Shown here: piece after piece, positions 4,716 to 32,000 of the stretch
How positions within the stretch are numbered: position 1 is the first letter of the stretch
How the letters are laid out: each line of letters opens with the position of its first letter
Source of the DNA: Archaeoglobus fulgidus DSM 4304
GTDB lineage: Archaea; Halobacteriota; Archaeoglobi; Archaeoglobales; Archaeoglobaceae
NCBI RefSeq assembly: GCF_000008665.1
Contig: NC_000917.1
Span: 1,230,001 to 1,262,000, forward strand
Length of the DNA stretch: 32,000 bases
Reading direction: 5' to 3'
Position numbers and translations under genes: made by a program
The notes under the pieces: model-generated
The model's input: the letters and a program-made list of their open reading frames with translations, nothing else
The model's database searches: none
Told to the model about the DNA's origin: nothing

Positions 4716-4740
4716 TGTGATATCCCGAATTAATTTCACT
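4716..4740. repeat. IS terminal inverted repeat (transposase 3' side)
   Basis: Sequence tgtgatatcccgaattaatttcact. The transposase stop codon lies inside it. Confidence 0.8.
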
Positions 4741-5635
4741 CCTCAAACAACCACCTCCCGTACTCAAACACCCTTTCAGCAGGTAGCTTCCTCAAAAAGG
4801 CCTGATAGGGAGTCTCCAATTCGTCGAAATTCAGGCTCATGTGAGGCTTAACGTAATTGTACCAATAAATGAACTCATCCAAAGAATCAAACAGATGGAT
4901 CTTCTGCTCCATCAAACCAAAGAACCTCTCTATCTTTCCATTCGTTTGTGGATGGTTTATTCTGGCAAGAACATGCCTTACTCCATTCTCGGCCAAAAAC
5001 TCCCTGAATCTATGCTTGGCCTTCTCTCTGCTTTTAGCTGCAACAAACTGAGTTCCGTGATCTGTGAGGATCTCATCCGGAATGCCATACTCCCTGAATC
5101 CCACTTTCAGGACTCTAATCGTGTTCTCAGTCGTAGCTGAATCGAAGACTCCGTAACAAGTAATAAAGCGGGAAGCATCATCCATGAAGGCTATAATCCA
5201 TTTCTCTCCAAGCCTCTTCCAGTCTCCCTGCCATAAAGACATTGAGTGGGTTCTTTCGTATCTAACCCATTTCCTTCGTTTCTTCTTGCTCATGTTCTCC
5301 TCCACCAAACCGTGTTTGAGTAAAACTTTGTAGATTGTATTATGGGAGATGTGGATGCCGTAATCCCTTTCTATCAGCCTTTCCAATGGTACTGGGCTGA
5401 GTCTGTATTTTTTGTAGGCCTGCAGGATTATTTGCTCTGTCTTTTCGTCAATTGGTTTGGGCTTTCTTCCTGCTTGTTTGAGTTCTGGAATCTGGCCAGT
5501 TTCCTCATATTGTTTTTTAAGCTGGTAGATTCTTCTTGGTGTAACTCTCATCACAGCGGCTATTTCCTTTACTGGAGCTCCCTTGTCAAGCTGTCTGATT
5601 ATCCACCTGATCTTTTTGTTCGTTAGTTTTCTCAC
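4736..5635 (-). CDS. IS transposase (HTH + rve/DDE integrase core)
   Basis: Motifs WQGDW...FMDDASRF...TDHGTQF...HPQTNGKIERF. The 340-aa track ORF runs past the IS boundary at 5678, so I place the start at the in-IS GTG at 5633-5635, giving MRKLTNKKIRWIIRQL. Confidence 0.85.
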   Translation of the reverse strand: MRKLTNKKIRWIIRQLDKGAPVKEIAAVMRVTPRRIYQLKKQYEETGQIPELKQAGRKPKPIDEKTEQIILQAYKKYRLSPVPLERLIERDYGIHISHNTIYKVLLKHGLVEENMSKKKRRKWVRYERTHSMSLWQGDWKRLGEKWIIAFMDDASRFITCYGVFDSATTENTIRVLKVGFREYGIPDEILTDHGTQFVAAKSREKAKHRFREFLAENGVRHVLARINHPQTNGKIERFFGLMEQKIHLFDSLDEFIYWYNYVKPHMSLNFDELETPYQAFLRKLPAERVFEYGRWLFEE

Positions 5636-5653
5636 ATGAAGTGGGTGTTTAGT

Positions 5654-5678
5654 AGTGAAATAATTTAGGGATACTACA
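5654..5678. repeat. IS terminal inverted repeat (transposase 5' side)
   Basis: The reverse complement reads tgtagtatccctaaattatttcact, matching the other end at 20 of 25 positions. Confidence 0.75.
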
Positions 5679-5789
5679 TCGCTGATTCCCAAAGCTGAAA
5701 TTAAAGAGGTAAGGAATGCGGCGCATCTGGCAAAGATAGAGAATCCAGAGGAGTTCAACCTCTACGTAGTGGAATTTCTAAAGAGATAG
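5679..5789 (+). pseudogene. Orphan 3' fragment of an alpha/beta-hydrolase gene, truncated by the IS
   Basis: My translation starting at the IS edge gives SLIPKAEIKEVRNAAHLAKIENPEEFNLYVVEFLKR*. This is a typical alpha/beta-hydrolase C-terminus, with the catalytic-His region followed by E-x-PEEF. No matching 5' part exists on the other IS flank. Confidence 0.5.
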
Positions 5790-25317: not shown

Positions 25318-25333
25318 CTTTAAAAATATTTAT
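25318..25333 (-). promoter_or_regulatory. TATA-like element (aaatatttttaaag on the minus strand) about 20-30 nt upstream of the PUA gene ATG, abutting the stop codon of the Res-like helicase gene
   Basis: Read directly in the 32-bp gap 25301-25332. Confidence 0.4.
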
Positions 25334-27660
25334 CAGTTACCACTCCCCACGGATTCAGCCATACTTACGTAAAATTTCTGAACGTAATCCTTTAAGACTG
25401 CCAAAACAATTTCTTGGAACTTTCTCAGCCCATCAAACGACTTTATCTTTAGTTTTCCGTTGTTATTCTCAATGCCTATCCCATCCATCTCGCTCAAAAA
25501 CAACCGGTACTTGTTTGATTTGGCTATTCGCCTTAATGTGTCAGCATCCACAATGAGGTTGTAGAATCCTCTTGTGATTTTGAAGTTTATGATTTCCGAG
25601 CGCACGTATTGCCAATCGATTAGCTCGAAATACTCTTCAGGAACCTCTACTGGATTGTCCGTTACCGTTTCAGCAGCTCCAACCTTCAATCCGTGCGCTA
25701 CAGTAATTTTAGGCCTCAAATCAATCTTAATCGTCTCCAGAATATCTTCCTCAAATCTGAGCTTCACGGGATAATCAAAACCATCCTTTGTTGTGTAAAT
25801 TCCATCTTCCCGTTTTTCGGGACGGTTGAGCCTAATTGCTAACTCCTCGTAATCCACTTCCTCATTTGATATCGCCCTCAGGAATGCGTTAATGTAGTCG
25901 GCGTTTAGCCCAAAAATGAAAAGCGTCTGCAGAACCTTGAGTTTGTAGTCCGGATTTTCCTCCCTTTTCAAAGAGAAGTTCTTCCCCTTCAGCCTTACAC
26001 CCCTTCCAAAGAGCTGGATGATCTGAGGCCCCTCCCCCTTCCCCATGTTGATTAAAACCATGTTAGAAACTCTCCATGAGTTCCAGCCCTCCACAAATTT
26101 TTTCGAACCAATTAGTATATTTATCGAAGAATTGTTTTCGTTAACTTCGAAAAACAAGGAATGGCTGAAATGGTCCTCTTTGACATCCATCTCTGAAATC
26201 AACTTTTTCAGTGTGCCTACATCACCAACATTAACGACGCCGAAATAGCTTTCAGCCGTGGAAATCTTGAGCCCCAACTCCCCATCGGCATTATTTATTT
26301 CGTAAACCTCCAGCCTCCCCTTACCGCCAAATACTTTCCGATAAACGTTTTCCACAAGAGAATCGACGTCGAGATTTCTTATGAACTCGAACTTTCCCTC
26401 AAAAATATCGTTCCCGTTGGTGTCCAAAAGTCCAGACTCGCCTTTCAGGATTTTCGCAGCGTTCTCTTTCAGATACCTTTCATCCCTTGCTATTCTTTCC
26501 AGATACTGAATTACCCTAACTACATCTGAATTTATTCCCTTTCCAGCGACCCTGCTACCAACAAAAACCCACAGGGGTTTCTCTATGCTGTAAGCTCTCA
26601 GCTCATCCCTGTATCTTTCAAAAACTTCCAGTTGCTCGTAAAAAGACAGCAATGCTGCAGTAAGTAGCAAATCTCTCTGCGTTTCTGTGTAGGCGTCTTC
26701 TCTTATGTTGTAAACGTAGAAGTCCTTTCCGTATCCGTCTGCGTAGAAGTACTTGTAGGAGTAATCGAAAATGATTGCCTTCGCGTATTCCTCAAGCAAA
26801 TCCCTGTTCTTACCCACAACCTGCCCGAAAGTTGCGGAGTACTCAAATATAAACCCGTTCTTTCCTATCTCCTCCCTCAGCTTTTTCCACTTCTGCTCCT
26901 CCGACTTCTGCCCCTTATGTCCCTCGTCGATAAACACCAGGTTTTTACCGTCAAAATAAGAAACGTCAACAGTCACACCTCTCCCCCTCTTCTCTTCAGT
27001 CAGCTTGTGGATGTCTATTACCAGAATCTCTCCGTCTTTCGTTTTCAGGTTGTCAACATTCCCATCGTACAGCTTGCATGGAATGCCGCTCAGCCTCAAT
27101 TCCTCGTAATGCTGCCTGGACAGTCCTTCGTTGGGTGTTATCAGAATTACGTTGTCCCAGCGGTTCTTCGAATATTTTAACATTTGCCAGTAGTTTATGT
27201 GCATTACAAGGGTCTTTCCGCTTCCCGTCGCCATCCAGAAGGCAAGCTTCCTGAGGTCCTCTTCTGTGAAAGGGGCTACTTTCTTTTTGCTTTTTTTGCT
27301 GTAGTTATCCAGAAACGTGTTGAGGTCGCTTAGAAATCGACTTCTGTCGTTGTAATACGCATCCAGAAAGATTTCTGTGAACAAAACAGCTAGATACTGG
27401 AAGTATTTGAGGTTGAAGCTCTGCTGTCTTCTATTTCGCCTTAATCTCTCAACATACTCCCTTATTGCCTCATCGTATTTTATTAAGTCCCTTTCCCAAT
27501 CCGGCCTTAATCGGATTAGGAGGTCAGCAAAATAGCTTCTACCGGAAGCATCGTAGCCCTCCAGCGCGTCTTTCAGCTTCTCTCTCAGCTCGTTGAAATG
27601 ATTAATACCGAAAAGGTTGAGAAAGTATTTGTTCAGAATCAAATACTGCTCAAGCCTCAT
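25333..27660 (-). CDS. Type III restriction Res-like SF2 helicase/translocase (no obvious nuclease domain)
   Basis: Walker A WMATGSGKT (27211-27231), DEGH (26917-26928), SAT, KFVEGWNSWRV and QLFGRGVRL. I prefer the ATG at 27658-27660 (MRLEQYLILN), which has GGAGGG 7 nt upstream, to the TTG at 27738 used in the track. Confidence 0.8.
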   Translation of the reverse strand: MRLEQYLILNKYFLNLFGINHFNELREKLKDALEGYDASGRSYFADLLIRLRPDWERDLIKYDEAIREYVERLRRNRRQQSFNLKYFQYLAVLFTEIFLDAYYNDRSRFLSDLNTFLDNYSKKSKKKVAPFTEEDLRKLAFWMATGSGKTLVMHINYWQMLKYSKNRWDNVILITPNEGLSRQHYEELRLSGIPCKLYDGNVDNLKTKDGEILVIDIHKLTEEKRGRGVTVDVSYFDGKNLVFIDEGHKGQKSEEQKWKKLREEIGKNGFIFEYSATFGQVVGKNRDLLEEYAKAIIFDYSYKYFYADGYGKDFYVYNIREDAYTETQRDLLLTAALLSFYEQLEVFERYRDELRAYSIEKPLWVFVGSRVAGKGINSDVVRVIQYLERIARDERYLKENAAKILKGESGLLDTNGNDIFEGKFEFIRNLDVDSLVENVYRKVFGGKGRLEVYEINNADGELGLKISTAESYFGVVNVGDVGTLKKLISEMDVKEDHFSHSLFFEVNENNSSINILIGSKKFVEGWNSWRVSNMVLINMGKGEGPQIIQLFGRGVRLKGKNFSLKREENPDYKLKVLQTLFIFGLNADYINAFLRAISNEEVDYEELAIRLNRPEKREDGIYTTKDGFDYPVKLRFEEDILETIKIDLRPKITVAHGLKVGAAETVTDNPVEVPEEYFELIDWQYVRSEIINFKITRGFYNLIVDADTLRRIAKSNKYRLFLSEMDGIGIENNNGKLKIKSFDGLRKFQEIVLAVLKDYVQKFYVSMAESVGSGN

Positions 27661-27752
27661 TTCATACCCTCCAGTACTATATCTCAGGAGCTTGAGCTTT
27701 CTCTTAAATTTTTCCCCAAAAATTGTGAAAACAGACAAGGAGAGTCGAGGCG

Positions 27753-28217
27753 TCAGACCGCGTAATCAAGTATTTCATCAGTATCCAGGTTCAATAATGG
27801 GGGTAATTCACTTTTTTCCACTTCCACATCATTCAACCTGATAATTGCGGAGTTATCGGGATTCGTGTTAGAAAATGACAAACGATAATAACCCAAATAT
27901 TTGTACTCTGCTAAGGATTTGGGATTTTTCGGCCTCTCCTTTGGAGCCGAATTAAAATATTGCTCTGCCTCTGAAAAAATTTTGTTCATTGTATCAATAA
28001 ACTCAAGCCTATCCGACCGTATTTCCGAATTGTTAGTTAATTCTTCTACGAAAATAAAATATCCTGTGCAATAGTTAAGAAATATCCAGCGGATTGGCCC
28101 TATATAATCAAATTTAGACACTATATCCTCTCCCATGACTTGTTTCAAGTTAGACCCACGATAAAAGGACCTTTCACTTTCTGTTTTTTTGTAGTTTAAT
28201 TTTTTCTGCAGTCCCAT
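27753..28217 (-). CDS. Hypothetical 154-aa protein, no recognisable family. It may be the C-terminal half of a split or frameshifted gene together with 28196-28630
   Basis: ATG-initiated ORF in a very AT-rich stretch. It overlaps the upstream ORF by 22 nt and lies in the -1 frame relative to it. Confidence 0.45.
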   Translation of the reverse strand: MGLQKKLNYKKTESERSFYRGSNLKQVMGEDIVSKFDYIGPIRWIFLNYCTGYFIFVEELTNNSEIRSDRLEFIDTMNKIFSEAEQYFNSAPKERPKNPKSLAEYKYLGYYRLSFSNTNPDNSAIIRLNDVEVEKSELPPLLNLDTDEILDYAV

Positions 28218-28630
28218 AGCATTTTCAACATATATTCCTCTATTTGAAAATCTTTAAAAATTTTATAATTCTCTAGTTTATAAACTATGTAATCCTCAAT
28301 GTTTACTCTCACCTTTTCATTTTTGTCATTTAGAAAATATACTGTTCCATCCTCCAGAACATAAAGCACGTCAGTGCCCAAAAACTTCCATTCACTTAGA
28401 TCGTTTATCAAAAACTCGTTGAACAACATAAATATCACCCTCTGTGGAAGGCGAAGTTTAGCATTCAGGCTATTTTTTTCTTCTACGAAAAAGAACACTT
28501 TCTTTTTCTTGCTGAGAAATACAAAATCGATATCCTGAGTGACCAATCCCTCGTATGCAGATTTCAAATTTTTCCTCATCCAAACTGAGAAGCTGTCCAT
28601 TGACAAGCTCATTGCCAACCCGGGCAACAT
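28196..28630 (-). CDS. Hypothetical 144-aa protein with a PD-(D/E)xK-like nuclease motif
   Basis: ...GLVTQDIDFVFLSKKKKVFFFVEEKNSLNAKLRLPQ... contains D35-x14-E50-x-K52 embedded in beta-strand-like hydrophobic runs, followed by a Gln, as in restriction-endonuclease-fold cores. Confidence 0.45.
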   Translation of the reverse strand: MLPGLAMSLSMDSFSVWMRKNLKSAYEGLVTQDIDFVFLSKKKKVFFFVEEKNSLNAKLRLPQRVIFMLFNEFLINDLSEWKFLGTDVLYVLEDGTVYFLNDKNEKVRVNIEDYIVYKLENYKIFKDFQIEEYMLKMLWDCRKN

Positions 28631-28646
28631 GCTACCATCTATTATA

Positions 28647-31556
28647 TCAATTTTGTGGTGTAAACATCAACGATTTAAACAACGACTCTATTGGCCTGAA
28701 GCCCTTTACCGCTGCATCCCCATTAATGTAAATCTCGTCGGGTTCAAACCCATTTACGTTGCTCTCGATAACCTCTCTGTCTTTCTTCCAATCTATGCCC
28801 ACAACGCTTCTCCAAACAATAGAAATCCTTTTTCCATCTTTTTCTCCAAAAACAAAAACGTATTTTCTTCCGTTCTCTTCCAAAAACCTGTACTTGGCCA
28901 CATTCAAGCCAAGTAAATAATTGAAGGTCTCAACCAAGTCGGCATTAACCACCTTTTGCCGGTAGTTCTCCATGATTCTCAGCCTGTAGCTAAAGGGGTC
29001 TACCAGCTCATCAATGTCGAGGAACGTCTTGCTGTGCTTGGTTTCCCATTCGAGCATGTATCTGACAAAATAATCTGTGAAATCGTACAGTACTCTCTGC
29101 ACCTCCCCAAACTCAACGTTTTCCAGCGCATCCTCGTACTGCTCCAGCGTGTGGTATTTGAAAAACCCTCCCGCCGTTTTTTCGTTGTATTTTTCCCTGA
29201 CGTCCTTCTCCTTGCTTATGCCGGACTTGTCGTAGAACAGAACCTTTTTCATTCTCGGCAAAACCACTGACCAAAAGTGTTCTCCCATCTCAACGCCAAT
29301 CCACTTTCTTCTGAGTTTCTGGGCAACCGCCGTTGTCGTTCCCGAGCCGAGAAAGAAGTCCAGAACCAGATCACCCTCGTTGGATGTCGATTCTATGACG
29401 CGCTTCAGTAGAATTTCGGAGTTTTCAGTGGAGAACTTGAAGCCGTCGGAATAGGATGGGATGTCCTTCCAGTTGTCGGTTATCTTAACCTCATCGGAGG
29501 TTAGATACTCAACCTTCCAGTCATCTCCGCCGCAGTTTAAGCACCTGTCAATTTTTGTGACACCGAAAACGGCTGTCTCTGGTTTTATGTCAAAGTACTT
29601 GAACGCCTCAGTTTTACTTGCCAAAATCTTATTTCTGAACTTTTCTTTCGACTCCTCTTCGTCCCAGTAATAAACGGCCCCGCATTTTTTGCACTTCAGT
29701 CTCAAAAAGTGTTCTTTCAGGAGTTTGTCCACCTTCTCCTGCACCAATGAAAAATGCTGCCCCTTCGGTGGATACAGAACTTTCCCGAAGAACGTCCTTT
29801 CCGGCGGATTCCTCTCCCCCTGGTTTAAAAAGCCCGTCCATTTGAAGTCCACGAGACTTCTCTTCCTGTACAGGTCCCTTCTCAAATAATTGTCCGATTT
29901 TGAATAAAAGAGCAGATACTCGCTCTCAACTTCAAACTTGTTGGGTGTGCCTATGCTCTGCCTCTTTCTGTTCACTATGATTTCGTTTCTGTAGTTGTCC
30001 TTGCCGAATATCTCATTCAACAAAAGCTTTAAGTAGGCGTTGCCGTTGTAATCACACCTGACGAAAATACTACCCCTTTCGTTCAGCAACTCCCTCCCAA
30101 GCCTGATTCTGTTTTCAAGCATCGTTATCCACGTTGCATCCTTGTAACCAACCTTATAGAGAAAGTCAGCTTCCTGCTCTTTGTTGAAGGGAGGGTCGAT
30201 GTAGATCGTCTGAACCTTTTCGTAGTACTTGCTCAGCAGCAGATTTAAGGCGTGAAAGTTCTCGCTTTTTATCAAAACACCATCCAAAATCTCATCCAAA
30301 TCATTTTCCCTGGTTAAAGCGTCCACCAATTTCCACTTAAAGCTCTCGCTGAAATGTCTCGTGTCAATCGGCAGCTTTTTCCACTCCTTTCCCTCCAGAG
30401 TGTGGCCGGAAAGGAGGTCGCCTTTTCCCTTAACTTCGATGCCGAAAAGCTCCCTCCACTCCTCTCTCTGCCTTTCGTTGCTCAAAATCTCGTCAAGAAT
30501 GCTTTCTAGGAACTCTTCTCCAGCATACTCCTTAATCCTGTCCAGTGTGATTACGTAATGCGTATCAACAACGAACTTCTTCTTTTCCCAGAGCCTCTTC
30601 TGAAAGTTTTCAATCTGCGCCAGAAAATCGATTATCTTCAGAGCGATTCTTCTGAAAACCCTCATTCCAGCAAGGTAAAGTCTCAGCCTCTCAAAATATT
30701 TGCTCTCCTCCAAAACCTGCAGGTCCTCCAGCTGCAAAAACTCGTTTTTAATGTAAAAGTCCAATTCACGCTCCAGAAATCCCCTCAAATCCCTGTGAAT
30801 GAAATAGTCTGTCGTGTTTCTTCTGGTGTAATTGTAGAGATGCCTTTCAATGTAACTCCTGCCCTTCTGGGAGTTCGGGTCTTTTTCGAAGATTAGTCTT
30901 GCCAAACTTTTTTCCGGAATCTTTCTCTGCAAAATCCTAACCGTTTCCTCGTTGATTCTATCCTGCGTTATTCGCTTGAACCTTTTCTCTTCCTCCTCAG
31001 TAAGACCTCTGTATTCAAAGTATATGTTCAGCTCCCTCCTCTCCTCGTCGAAGTCCGCTATTTTTTCACTTAAAACGAAAAACTTCCTCTCCGGTGACTT
31101 TATGTTGCCCTTCTCCTCCTCTGCCTCCACAACTCTAAAGTTAACGGTCAACTCCTTAACCCTAAACGTGTACCTCCCGAAGCATTCGGTGGTTTTTACG
31201 TAATATTGATCCTTGTTTGCCCAGTAAAGCAAAACCTCCTCACCGTTGTAGGGAACGACGTACTTTTCATTCCTTCCGTATCTCCTTTTGCTTATGAAGT
31301 CGCCTTTGTCATAGTACCTTGAGAAGAACGTTATCAGATGATTGTAAACCTCCTTCTCCAGCTCTTCAGCCAATTTCAGCTGATTTTCAATTTCCTCAAT
31401 TAAATCCTTCTCGATGAACCTTTCAATCTCCTCCCGCCTGTAGTTCATTATCCTGTAGATGCCAAAGTCCAGATCAGCATTCTCGAATTGAAACATTTCT
31501 CTTAAATTTGCCTTCAATTTCTCTTTCAGGTCGCTTTTGCCCTCCATACTACCCAT
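28647..31556 (-). CDS. Large beta-class (N6-adenine/N4-cytosine, PF01555-type, Mod-like) DNA methyltransferase with a ~440-aa N-terminal extension, a Cys4 zinc ribbon in the target-recognition region and a ~200-aa C-terminal extension
   Basis: 969 aa. Motif IV IYIDPPFN (DPPF at 30186-30197) precedes motif I LVLDFFLGSGTTTAVAQKL. CKKCG...CLNCG (29532-29693) lies between them. N-terminal conserved-looking blocks are DLDFGIYRIMN and YVVPYNGEEVLLYWANKDQYYVKT. Confidence 0.85.
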   Translation of the reverse strand: MGSMEGKSDLKEKLKANLREMFQFENADLDFGIYRIMNYRREEIERFIEKDLIEEIENQLKLAEELEKEVYNHLITFFSRYYDKGDFISKRRYGRNEKYVVPYNGEEVLLYWANKDQYYVKTTECFGRYTFRVKELTVNFRVVEAEEEKGNIKSPERKFFVLSEKIADFDEERRELNIYFEYRGLTEEEEKRFKRITQDRINEETVRILQRKIPEKSLARLIFEKDPNSQKGRSYIERHLYNYTRRNTTDYFIHRDLRGFLERELDFYIKNEFLQLEDLQVLEESKYFERLRLYLAGMRVFRRIALKIIDFLAQIENFQKRLWEKKKFVVDTHYVITLDRIKEYAGEEFLESILDEILSNERQREEWRELFGIEVKGKGDLLSGHTLEGKEWKKLPIDTRHFSESFKWKLVDALTRENDLDEILDGVLIKSENFHALNLLLSKYYEKVQTIYIDPPFNKEQEADFLYKVGYKDATWITMLENRIRLGRELLNERGSIFVRCDYNGNAYLKLLLNEIFGKDNYRNEIIVNRKRQSIGTPNKFEVESEYLLFYSKSDNYLRRDLYRKRSLVDFKWTGFLNQGERNPPERTFFGKVLYPPKGQHFSLVQEKVDKLLKEHFLRLKCKKCGAVYYWDEEESKEKFRNKILASKTEAFKYFDIKPETAVFGVTKIDRCLNCGGDDWKVEYLTSDEVKITDNWKDIPSYSDGFKFSTENSEILLKRVIESTSNEGDLVLDFFLGSGTTTAVAQKLRRKWIGVEMGEHFWSVVLPRMKKVLFYDKSGISKEKDVREKYNEKTAGGFFKYHTLEQYEDALENVEFGEVQRVLYDFTDYFVRYMLEWETKHSKTFLDIDELVDPFSYRLRIMENYRQKVVNADLVETFNYLLGLNVAKYRFLEENGRKYVFVFGEKDGKRISIVWRSVVGIDWKKDREVIESNVNGFEPDEIYINGDAAVKGFRPIESLFKSLMFTPQN

Positions 31557-31624: not shown

Positions 31625-32000
31625 TGTGATATCCCGAATTAATTTCACTCCTCAAACAACCACCTCCCGTACTCAAACACCCTTTCAGCAGGTAGCTTCC
31701 TCAAAAAGGCCTGATAGGGAGTCTCCAATTCGTCGAAATTCAGGCTCATGTGAGGCTTAACGTAATTGTACCAATAAATGAACTCATCCAAAGAATCAAA
31801 CAGATGGATCTTCTGCTCCATCAAACCAAAGAACCTCTCTATCTTTCCATTCGTTTGTGGATGGTTTATTCTGGCAAGAACATGCCTTACTCCATTCTCG
31901 GCCAAAAACTCCCTGAATCTATGCTTGGCCTTCTCTCTGCTTTTAGCTGCAACAAACTGAGTTCCGTGATCTGTGAGGATCTCATCCGGAATGCCATACT
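31625..32000 (-). mobile_element. Second copy of the 963-bp IS (partial, cut by the window end), same orientation as copy 1
   Basis: By my base-by-base reading, 31625-32000 is identical to 4716-5091. Confidence 0.85.
31645..32000 (-). CDS. IS transposase, C-terminal part (gene continues beyond the window end)
   Basis: Translation is identical to the C-terminus of the 4736-5635 transposase (...HPQTNGKIERFFGLMEQKIHLF...). Confidence 0.85.
   Translation of the reverse strand, partial: YGIPDEILTDHGTQFVAAKSREKAKHRFREFLAENGVRHVLARINHPQTNGKIERFFGLMEQKIHLFDSLDEFIYWYNYVKPHMSLNFDELETPYQAFLRKLPAERVFEYGRWLFEE

What the first reader, a model, noticed from the sequence alone, without database searches (positions are those of the whole stretch)
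28196..28217. Slippery A_AAA_AAT heptamer / A6 run at the overlap of the two small cassette ORFs: split gene, phase switch or -1 frameshift fusion
The 144-aa ORF ends ...TGC AGA AAA AAT TAA. The 154-aa ORF starts 22 nt upstream of that stop and lies exactly in the -1 frame: ATG GGA CTG CAG AAA AAA TTA AAC.

The last two sense codons plus the preceding base form A_AAA_AAT (plus-strand 28199-28205). This has the X_XXY_YYZ form of a -1 slippery site and sits immediately before the stop. A -1 slip, or a single extra A in the A6 run, would join the two ORFs into one protein of about 290 aa. That protein would have an N-terminal PD-(D/E)xK-like domain and a C-terminal domain of unknown function, which is the size of a typical stand-alone restriction nuclease.

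The nuclease component could therefore be:
- an inactivated gene;
- a homopolymer-controlled ON/OFF switch, as seen for phase-variable R-M genes in bacteria;
- a product of programmed frameshifting.
Basis: seen in the sequence. Interest (0 to 1): 0.65.

Follow-up and report, generated by a model that had tools for sequence, protein, structure and literature searches.

The report
One-base deletion splitting a restriction-system gene
The two small overlapping ORFs are halves of one ~290-aa nuclease-like gene lying between the methylase and helicase genes of an Archaeoglobus fulgidus Type III restriction system; a one-base loss in a poly-A run (A7 to A6) split it, some wild relatives still carry the intact gene, and the "slippery" site is most likely just a by-product of that ordinary mutation.

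Summary
On the minus strand, ORF144 ends ...TGC AGA AAA AAT TAA. ORF154 starts 22 nt upstream of the end of that stop, in the -1 frame.

The two ORFs are halves of one gene, here called X:
- 44 more distant homologous loci or proteins are all single 256-305-aa ORFs that read through the junction without a gap.
- Near-identical A. fulgidus contigs from four other samples carry A7 and an intact 286-292-aa gene with exactly the predicted junction, ...WDCRKKLNYKK....
- The window (A. fulgidus DSM 4304), strain DSM 8774 and 12 more contigs carry A6.

The tract state follows haplotype. At least 10 flanking SNPs are fixed between the A6 and A7 groups, and no haplotype group contains both lengths. No other lineage has an A-tract or a frameshift at this position, and no RNA structure follows the heptamer.

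The break falls in the linker between two homologous PD-(D/E)xK-like domains. The neighbouring Res protein lacks the C-terminal endonuclease domain that its 60-77%-identical homologues have.

Best reading: a stable A7-to-A6 frameshift allele, meaning gene inactivation or fission, in a decaying Type III system.

Minor rivals that remain untested:
- programmed -1 frameshifting, since the heptamer matches that of Sulfolobus fucA1;
- true phase variation.

The parts
28199..28205 (-). Heptamer A_AAA_AAT in the ORF144 frame. It contains the A6 tract (28200-28205), which is A7 in the intact allele.
   Evidence: sequence. A6 in the window, L001 and L011-L022; A7 in L007-L010.
28196..28198 (-). TAA stop of ORF144. 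It is created in frame by the 1-nt deletion and lies immediately 3' of the heptamer.
28196..28630 (-). ORF144, the N-terminal domain of X (PD-(D/E)xK-like). D33, D35, E50, E51 and K52 are conserved. The true start is probably the ATG at 28612 or 28600, as judged from homologues and other gene calls.
27753..28217 (-). ORF154, the C-terminal domain of X. It is a degenerate duplicate of the N-terminal domain (IRWIF...FIFVEEL, with no catalytic Lys). Its ATG arises from the conserved Leu-Trp codons (CTA TGG) and has no Shine-Dalgarno sequence at working distance; the nearest GAGG lies about 19 nt upstream.
   Evidence: hhalign of the N half against the C half: probability 95.8%, E 6.6e-9.
28647..31556 (-). 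Type III Mod methyltransferase (969 aa), intact.
   Evidence: PF01555, 9e-38. (PADLOC MTase_III, 1.2e-174).
25333..27660 (-). Type III Res helicase subunit. It is 775 aa from the ATG that follows a GGAGG; the mechanical ORF starts at 27738. It lacks the C-terminal PD-DxK endonuclease domain present in its homologues.
   Evidence: ResIII. (REase_III, 5e-126; profile positions 880-1154 unmatched). (homologues of 1035-1060 aa carry PDF...IDPK)..
28473..28479 (-). Second A7 tract in X. It includes another in-frame A_AAA_AAT, within the EEKNS catalytic motif, and is invariant in all 18 A. fulgidus loci.
28174..28180 (-). Third A7 tract, 16 nt downstream of the stop codon, invariant in all 18 loci.

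Best explanation
The site is a genuine, heritable one-base deletion allele (A7 to A6) in a coding poly-A tract of a single gene, X.

X encodes a ~290-aa protein made of two homologous PD-(D/E)xK-like domains. It sits between mod and res in a subset of Type III restriction-modification operons.

The deletion falls in the linker between the two domains. It terminates the N-terminal domain at a new TAA and leaves the C-terminal domain in the -1 frame behind a fortuitous ATG.

The reference strain and most sampled A. fulgidus populations carry this split allele. One haplotype clade keeps the intact gene.

The most likely consequence is loss of full-length X, either by inactivation or at best by fission into two weakly expressed domain polypeptides. 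This happened in an operon whose Res had already lost its endonuclease domain. The restriction arm is therefore decaying while the methyltransferase is kept.

The slippery heptamer next to a stop codon is a by-product of the deletion, not an evolved recoding signal.

- **Shown:** the split, the A6/A7 polymorphism, its linkage to haplotype, the single-ORF state of all homologues, the domain duplication, and the Res truncation.
- **Inferred:** the direction of the change (A7 ancestral), loss of function, and decay of restriction.
For: - 16 full-length homologues of 260-286 aa cover about 95% of the fused sequence. The alignment crosses the junction without a gap: LWDC[KR]GxPxxKKTExERSxYRGS.
- 28 further loci show one contiguous tblastn frame each, so none is frameshifted.
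- The 90%-identity cluster holds both split forms (134-144 aa plus 154 aa) and intact forms (286, 288 and 292 aa) with junction ...WDCRKKLNYKK....
- At the DNA level the only difference at the site is A6 versus A7. A6 is found in the window, L001, L011 (strain DSM 8774) and L012-L022. A7 is found in L007-L010, from four different samples.
- L001 differs from the window at 12 of 9527 positions and still has A6, so this is not a sequencing error.
- The A6 and A7 groups differ by fixed SNPs on both sides of X: Mod codons 817, 822, 827, 833 and 912, and Res codons 57, 79, 130, 132 and 133. No haplotype group contains both tract lengths.
- Distant homologues have AAA GGA AAT CC... at the equivalent position, with no long A-tract.
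- The AlphaFold2 model of the fused protein has pLDDT 89 and pTM 0.88. Confidence dips and no secondary structure is predicted over residues ~138-161, which is where the break lies.
- The Res protein is colinear and 77% identical with residues 1-775 of 1041-aa P0207. The extra C-terminus of P0207 carries PDF...IDPK. About 100 of the listed homologues at 60-77% identity are roughly 1005-1100 aa long.
- Polymorphisms in X are 5 nonsynonymous to 1 synonymous, against 22:24 in Mod plus Res. This points to relaxed constraint but is not significant (p = 0.19).
Against: - The A6 allele is widespread, with at least 5 haplotypes and two cultured strains from different sites. Both half-ORFs are still open in all 14 A6 loci, with no secondary stop or indel. 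This is compatible with retained function, although too few mutations are expected for it to be a real test.
- Total diversity in X within the A6 clade is 6 sites. About 5 would be expected at the constraint level of Mod and Res, and about 11 under strict neutrality (my estimate).
- The heptamer is identical to the experimentally proven archaeal -1 frameshift site of S. solfataricus fucA1 (PMC1616953).
- The break lies exactly at a domain boundary, so two separate chains might still assemble.
Confidence: 0.62

Rival explanations
1. Gene fission with retained function. ORF144 and ORF154 are both translated, with ORF154 starting from its own ATG by coupling or re-initiation near the ORF144 stop. 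The two chains associate as a heterodimer that reproduces the pseudo-dimeric fused protein.
For: - The break lies in the low-confidence inter-domain linker of a confidently packed two-domain model (pTM 0.88).
- The two halves are homologous. Roughly 250 single-domain relatives of 110-180 aa exist as stand-alone proteins.
- Both half-ORFs are intact in all 14 A6 loci.
- An ATG lies 22 nt upstream of the end of the ORF144 stop codon.
Against: - The ATG is a by-product of the conserved Leu-Trp codons. No Shine-Dalgarno sequence lies within 5-10 nt of it; the nearest GAGG is about 19 nt away, whereas res has GGAGG at 7 nt.
- The N-terminal domain modelled alone loses confidence: pLDDT 78, and 62-66 over residues 11-30 against about 90 in the fused model.
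- No other lineage has adopted a split arrangement.
- Substitutions in X are mostly nonsynonymous.
Confidence: 0.15
2. Recoding. In A6 strains a small fraction of ribosomes slip -1 on A_AAA_AAT, helped by the adjacent TAA stop, or RNA polymerase adds an A. Either route would give low-level full-length X.
For: - The heptamer has X_XXY_YYZ form, in the right frame, immediately before a stop.
- It is identical to the fucA1 site of S. solfataricus, which gives about 5% frameshifting in E. coli and is used in vivo (PMC1616953; PMC8211752).
- A_AAA_AAC in IS1 also shifts without a strong downstream structure (my own knowledge, not checked here).
- The A6 allele persists with both halves open.
Against: - There is no downstream stimulatory structure. 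Folds of 69-139 nt give z-scores of -0.1 to +1.6. The only hairpin starts about 28 nt after the stop, and folding was computed at 37 C for an organism that grows near 83 C (growth temperature from my own knowledge).
- The arrangement is not conserved beyond the A6 clade.
- The heptamer arises automatically from the deletion.
- An identical in-frame heptamer elsewhere in ORF144 has no alternative-frame ORF.
- An intact allele coexists in the species.
Confidence: 0.08
3. Phase variation. The A-tract is a contingency switch that reversibly turns X, and with it restriction, ON (A7) and OFF (A6) within populations.
For: - A length polymorphism of exactly one repeat unit toggles the reading frame among strains more than 99% identical.
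- Type III R-M genes are classic phase-variable loci in bacteria (PMC5909438, listed).
- Recombination among haplotypes is visible as a four-gamete violation at alignment columns 768 and 902, so a single origin cannot be proven strictly.
Against: - A tract of 6/7 A is well below the roughly 8-9 nt typical of hypermutable homopolymers (my own knowledge).
- Tract state is perfectly congruent with haplotype clade across 18 loci, with at least 10 linked fixed SNPs.
- Identical haplotypes from different samples always share the same tract length.
- Two other A7 tracts in the same gene never vary.
- No homologue has an A-tract at this position.
Confidence: 0.08
4. Sequencing or assembly error in a homopolymer, with the real gene intact.
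For: Homopolymer miscounts are common. The reference genome is an old Sanger assembly (my own knowledge).
Against: A6 is found in at least 14 independent contigs. These include a second complete genome (CP006577) and metagenome assemblies from several projects, on at least 5 SNP haplotypes.
Confidence: 0.01

Closest known systems
Frameshift-inactivated or split genes of restriction-modification systems (homopolymer indel alleles)
   Same: A one-base change in a coding mononucleotide run breaks a restriction-arm gene while the methyltransferase stays intact. Intact and broken alleles coexist within the species.
   Different: The broken gene is not res or mod. It is an uncharacterised third gene (X) found in only some Type III operons. 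The organism is a hyperthermophilic archaeon. The break coincides with a domain boundary.
Sulfolobus solfataricus fucA1 programmed -1 frameshift (PMC1616953)
   Same: An archaeal gene split into two ORFs in 0 and -1 frames, with the identical heptamer A-AAA-AAT in the overlap. Full-length homologues exist elsewhere.
   Different: fucA1 has a flanking putative stem-loop and tandem rare codons, and its frameshift product was shown by mass spectrometry and mutagenesis. Here no structure is predicted, the stop codon directly abuts the heptamer, an intact allele exists in the same species, and no product data are available.
Phase-variable Type III mod/res genes of Haemophilus, Neisseria and Helicobacter (phasevarions; PMC5909438)
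   Same: Repeat-length change switches the reading frame of a gene in a Type III R-M locus.
   Different: Those tracts are long (tetra- or pentanucleotide repeats, or homopolymers of about 9 or more) and vary within clonal populations. Here the tract is 6/7 A, is stable within haplotypes, and lies in an accessory gene.
Type III R-M systems with a third subunit (helicase-like ATPase 5' of mod; PMC8259958)
   Same: A conserved extra gene co-localised with mod and res in many putative Type III systems, of unknown role.
   Different: That protein is a large ATPase without a nuclease motif and lies upstream of mod. X is a ~270-aa tandem PD-(D/E)xK-like protein lying between mod and res or after res.

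Membership tests
Programmed -1 ribosomal frameshift site | X_XXY_YYZ slippery heptamer in the zero frame at the ORF overlap | tested here: met
   A_AAA_AAT at 28199-28205 in the ORF144 frame. Such heptamers are common, however: 35 in 25.6 kb of ORFs.
Programmed -1 ribosomal frameshift site | Stimulatory RNA structure (hairpin or pseudoknot) 5-9 nt downstream | tested here: not met
   Minimum-free-energy folds of 69-139 nt downstream give z-scores of -0.1 to +1.6. The only hairpin starts about 28 nt after the stop.
Programmed -1 ribosomal frameshift site | Frameshift arrangement and slippery site conserved among homologues | tested here: not met
   All 44 non-A. fulgidus homologues are single-frame. 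None has an A-tract at the site. An intact A7 allele exists in the same species.
Programmed -1 ribosomal frameshift site | Trans-frame protein product detected | not testable with these tools
   No proteomic or reporter data were available. A literature search for the locus tags found nothing relevant.
Phase-variable (contingency) locus | Simple-sequence repeat in the coding region whose length change toggles the frame | tested here: met
   The A6/A7 polymorphism switches between split and intact gene.
Phase-variable (contingency) locus | Tract length varies independently of genetic background or within clonal lineages | tested here: not met
   Among 18 loci, tract state is fully linked to at least 10 flanking fixed SNPs. 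Identical haplotypes always share the same length. Read-level heterogeneity could not be tested.
Phase-variable (contingency) locus | Tract in the hypermutable length range (homopolymer of about 8-9 or more) | tested here: not met
   The tract is 6 or 7 A. Two other A7 tracts in the same gene are invariant. The threshold itself is from general knowledge.
PD-(D/E)xK nuclease superfamily (N-terminal domain of X) | Conserved D...(D/E)xK catalytic motif on a beta-hairpin | tested here: met
   D33, D35, E50, E51 and K52 are invariant or at least 90% conserved in 17-18 sequences. They lie on predicted strands E29-40 and E45-52.
PD-(D/E)xK nuclease superfamily (N-terminal domain of X) | Alpha-beta-beta-beta-alpha-beta core fold similar to solved members | tested here: inconclusive
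   The top Foldseek hits for the N-terminal domain are PD-(D/E)xK proteins: ACE1 Cas4-family (E 6e-3, probability 0.84), cap-snatching endonucleases, SSO0001, HincII and VRR_NUC. No hit has E below 1e-3 and TM-scores are about 0.3. The full-length model gives no significant hit. One single-domain relative has a sub-threshold Pfam VRR_NUC hit (E 0.006).
Type III restriction-modification system | Beta-class N6/N4 Mod methyltransferase adjacent to res | tested here: met
   PF01555, 9e-38. PADLOC MTase_III, 1.2e-174.
Type III restriction-modification system | Res with SF2 helicase/ATPase motifs | tested here: met
   ResIII 2.9e-16 and DEAD 2.2e-9. PADLOC REase_III, 5.2e-126.
Type III restriction-modification system | Res carries a C-terminal PD-(D/E)xK endonuclease domain | tested here: not met
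   A. fulgidus Res ends at residue 775. Homologues at 60-77% identity are mostly 1005-1100 aa long and carry PDF...IDPK in the extra C-terminus. Res is 775 aa in all A. fulgidus loci.

The most novel reading that the evidence does not exclude
In A6 strains, full-length X is made at a low level by -1 ribosomal frameshifting on A_AAA_AAT. This is the same heptamer as in Sulfolobus fucA1, here abutting a stop codon. It would be the second cellular archaeal -1 frameshift and the first in a euryarchaeon. It would throttle expression of a trans-acting nuclease subunit for a Type III system whose Res has no nuclease domain of its own.
Probability: 0.06. Interest if true: 0.7.

Novelty: new member of a known kind. 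Interest (0 to 1): 0.3.

Why it matters
For the finding itself, the result is mostly a clean-up. The overlapping ORF pair in the A. fulgidus reference genome is one gene broken by a homopolymer deletion, and the intact allele is documented in wild populations. Annotations should treat the pair as a frameshifted gene, and the slippery site should not be listed as a recoding candidate without experiments.

Two by-products are of some interest:
- X defines a rare, unannotated family. About 20 two-domain clusters and about 250 single-domain relatives were found, with no Pfam, NCBIfam or PADLOC model. It is a tandem PD-(D/E)xK-like protein found next to Type III Mod, usually with Res, which suggests an undescribed third component of some Type III systems.
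- The natural A6/A7 pair, combined with a Res that lacks its nuclease domain, offers a ready-made comparison for testing what X does.

Tried and rejected
- **Genome collection.** A genome-contig scan with the X alignment found no relatives. The window's own genome did not appear either, and I do not know why; it may be masked or may not be a species representative.
- **Family libraries.** Pfam, NCBIfam and PADLOC scans of ORF144, ORF154 and the fused protein gave nothing significant.
- **Solved structures, by sequence.** A PDB search with the X profile returned only chance-level hits, E at least 0.14. Res as a single sequence had no PDB match.
- **Solved structures, by fold.** Foldseek with the full-length model gave no significant hit; the top hits were DAP epimerases at E 0.05.
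- **Literature.** A search for locus tags AF1406-AF1409 returned only unrelated papers. A search for an A. fulgidus Type III system or methylome found nothing on this organism.
- **Sequencing error.** Rejected, because independent assemblies on different SNP backgrounds share A6.
- **X as the nuclease that replaces a missing Res nuclease, in general.** Rejected as a general rule, because in every other system sampled where the Res C-terminus is on the contig, X co-occurs with a Res that has its own PD-DxK domain. It remains possible in A. fulgidus specifically.
- **Selection test.** Comparing nonsynonymous and synonymous polymorphisms had too few sites to decide (5:1 against 22:24, p = 0.19).

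Full report
**1. Observation**

The reverse complement of window 28196-28217 reads ATGGGACTGCAGAAAAAATTAA.
- ORF144 (28630..28196, minus strand) ends ...TGG GAC TGC AGA AAA AAT TAA.
- ORF154 (28217..27753, minus strand) begins ATG GGA CTG CAG AAA AAA TTA. It is in the -1 frame and overlaps ORF144 by 22 nt.
- The heptamer A_AAA_AAT occupies 28199-28205 and the A6 run 28200-28205.
- Adding one A gives a 292-aa ORF.

**2. Setting**

The window comes from Archaeoglobus fulgidus DSM 4304. The neighbouring ACT-domain protein is AF1403 (PDB 1Y7P), and the exact proteins are recorded on a 2,178,400-bp replicon.

On the minus strand the gene order is Mod, ORF144, ORF154, Res.
- Mod (31556..28647, 969 aa) matches PF01555 and PADLOC MTase_III at 1.2e-174.
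- Res (27660..25333) matches Pfam ResIII and PADLOC REase_III at 5e-126.
- The small ORFs match nothing in Pfam, NCBIfam or PADLOC.

**3. The two ORFs are one gene**

The fused sequence finds 16 single-ORF proteins of 260-286 aa. They are 34-51% identical over about 95% of the query, with E 1e-68 to 4e-26. The alignment runs through the junction with no gap: LWDC[KR]GxPxxKKTExERSxYRGS.

Twenty-eight further loci were examined, from metagenomes and from a Nanopusillus MAG. Each shows one contiguous reading frame.

A full-library profile search found about 20 two-domain clusters and about 250 single-domain relatives of 110-180 aa.

**4. The intact allele exists in the same species**

The 90%-identity cluster of ORF144 and ORF154 also contains 286-, 288- and 292-aa proteins. 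Their junction is exactly ...WDCRKKLNYKK..., and they differ from the window at only two residues.

I fetched DNA for 18 A. fulgidus loci that share the same gene neighbourhood.
- The tract is A6 in the window, L001, L011 (strain DSM 8774, CP006577) and L012-L022.
- The tract is A7 in L007-L010, which come from four different samples.
- L001 differs from the window at 12 of 9527 positions and is A6. Homopolymer sequencing error is therefore excluded.

**5. Stable allele or switch**

The A7 contigs form their own haplotype group. Fixed differences lie on both sides of X: Mod codons 817, 822, 827, 833 and 912, and Res codons 57, 79, 130, 132 and 133.

The A6 contigs fall into at least 5 haplotypes. 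No haplotype group contains both tract lengths.

Two other A7 tracts in the same gene (28473-28479 and 28174-28180) are invariant in all 18 loci.

One change, most simply A7 to A6 because all outgroups are intact, explains the data. Some recombination among haplotypes is visible as a four-gamete violation at alignment columns 768 and 902. A single origin is therefore likely but not strictly proven.

Distant homologues have AAA GGA AAT CCx at the equivalent position. The A-tract itself is specific to A. fulgidus.

**6. Recoding signals**

No stimulatory structure follows the heptamer. Folds of 69-139 nt give z-scores of -0.1 to +1.6, and the only hairpin starts about 28 nt beyond the stop.

In-frame X_XXY_YYZ heptamers are common: 35 in 25.6 kb of long ORFs. 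ORF144 contains a second in-frame A_AAA_AAT with no alternative-frame ORF behind it.

The heptamer plus TAA is exactly what results from deleting one A from AGA AAA AAA TTA.

The heptamer is nevertheless identical to the only experimentally proven cellular archaeal -1 frameshift site, S. solfataricus fucA1. That site gives about 5% frameshifting in E. coli and is required in vivo (PMC1616953; review PMC8211752). Low-level slippage therefore cannot be excluded.

**7. What X is**

AlphaFold2 models the fused protein confidently, with pLDDT 89 and pTM 0.88. It forms two domains joined by a low-confidence segment without predicted secondary structure at residues ~138-161. The frameshift at residue ~144 lies in that linker.

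A profile-profile comparison of the two halves gives probability 95.8% and E 6.6e-9, so the protein is an internal duplication.
- The N-terminal copy keeps D33, D35, E50, E51 and K52 nearly invariant.
- The C-terminal copy has (D/H/R)W...EEL and lacks the lysine.

Fold searches point towards the PD-(D/E)xK superfamily but are not significant.
- The N-terminal domain alone has pLDDT 78. Its best hits are the Cas4-family protein ACE1 (E 6e-3), cap-snatching endonucleases, SSO0001, HincII and VRR_NUC, with TM-scores of about 0.3.
- The full-length model has no significant hit.

**8. Genomic association**

Every locus with a two-domain X and enough flanking sequence also carries a Type III Mod or Res. 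The gene order is Mod-X-Res in the Nanopusillus-like clade and Mod-Res-X in a more distant clade.

In those systems Res is 987-998 aa and ends in a PDF...IDPK domain.

A. fulgidus Res is different.
- It is 775 aa in all strains.
- It is colinear and 77% identical with residues 1-775 of 1041-aa P0207.
- Most of about 100 listed homologues at 60-77% identity are 1005-1100 aa.
- The missing ~266 residues of P0207 contain PDF...IDPK.

The A. fulgidus Res has therefore lost its endonuclease domain.

Its closest Mod-Res relatives (L046, L048) have no X. AfuMod is 59-62% identical to their Mods and 47% identical to the Nanopusillus Mod. X thus looks like an optional, exchangeable accessory gene.

**9. 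Interpretation**

The best-supported reading (confidence about 0.6) is a stable frameshift allele that inactivates or splits X. The operon's restriction arm was already damaged, while Mod is kept.

Weak support comes from the excess of nonsynonymous polymorphisms in X: 5:1 against 22:24 in Mod plus Res (p = 0.19).

The main counter-evidence is that the A6 allele is widespread and both halves remain open in all 14 A6 loci. Too few mutations are expected for this to be decisive.

Rivals, with approximate confidence:
- Functional fission into a heterodimer (about 0.15). The domain-boundary break favours it. The lack of a Shine-Dalgarno sequence at working distance before the fortuitous ATG counts against it, as does the lower confidence of the isolated N-terminal domain.
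- Low-level -1 frameshifting or transcriptional slippage (about 0.08).
- Genuine phase variation (about 0.08).
- Sequencing error (about 0.01).

**10. Novelty**

A homopolymer frameshift in a restriction-system gene is a known kind of event. The case is well documented here, but it is ordinary.

The uncharacterised X family, and the natural pair of A6 and A7 alleles next to a nuclease-less Res, are the parts worth following up.

Noticed in passing
window 25333-27660 (minus strand): The Type III Res subunit is 775 aa and lacks the ~266-aa C-terminal PD-DxK (PDF...IDPK) endonuclease domain present in its 60-77%-identical homologues. Colinearity stops at residue ~764, followed by 11 unrelated codons, a stop, and 32 nt before the next gene. 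The same holds in all A. fulgidus loci examined.
   Followed up: yes
window 4716-5091 and 31625-32000: There is a 100% identical direct repeat of 376 nt running to the window end. It is the end of an IS element encoding an rve-type integrase or transposase (ORF 4736..5758, minus strand). A second copy abuts the upstream side of mod. DSM 8774 (L011) also has an IS there, whereas metagenome contigs have a VitK2_biosynth gene instead.
   Followed up: partly
X family: P0001-P0016, P0056-P0201; loci L002-L006 and L023-L045: X is an unannotated family with no Pfam, NCBIfam or PADLOC model. It is a tandem duplication of a ~130-aa PD-(D/E)xK-like domain and is found next to Type III Mod, usually with Res, in the order Mod-X-Res or Mod-Res-X. 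About 250 single-domain relatives exist, some with an N-terminal zinc ribbon (P0098, P0101, P0128). Two of the single-domain relatives (L044, L045) also lie next to a Mod.
   Followed up: partly
L007:1-126: In one A7 contig, the 126 nt upstream of the X region do not match the 3' end of mod that every other locus has there. This is either an assembly artefact at the contig end or a population in which mod is rearranged or absent.
   Followed up: partly
window 27753-28630, alignment columns 695, 768 and 902: All four allele combinations are present at pairs of SNPs inside X among A. fulgidus haplotypes. This indicates recombination or recurrent mutation within this 0.9-kb gene. The C-domain residue equivalent to the conserved Asp is polymorphic, His or Arg (codon CAC or CGC).
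   Followed up: partly
L006 and L025 (res region); L027:4647: In some Nanopusillus-like X-containing systems the res gene is itself broken into pieces or frames (for example 478 + 283 + 144 aa in L006). Decay of the restriction arm therefore recurs in this group of systems.
   Followed up: no
L002:7840-10552: In one homologous locus, a nucleotidyltransferase/HEPN pair and an MjaI-like Type II R-M pair are inserted between X and res. The Type III operon acts there as a small defence island.
   Followed up: no
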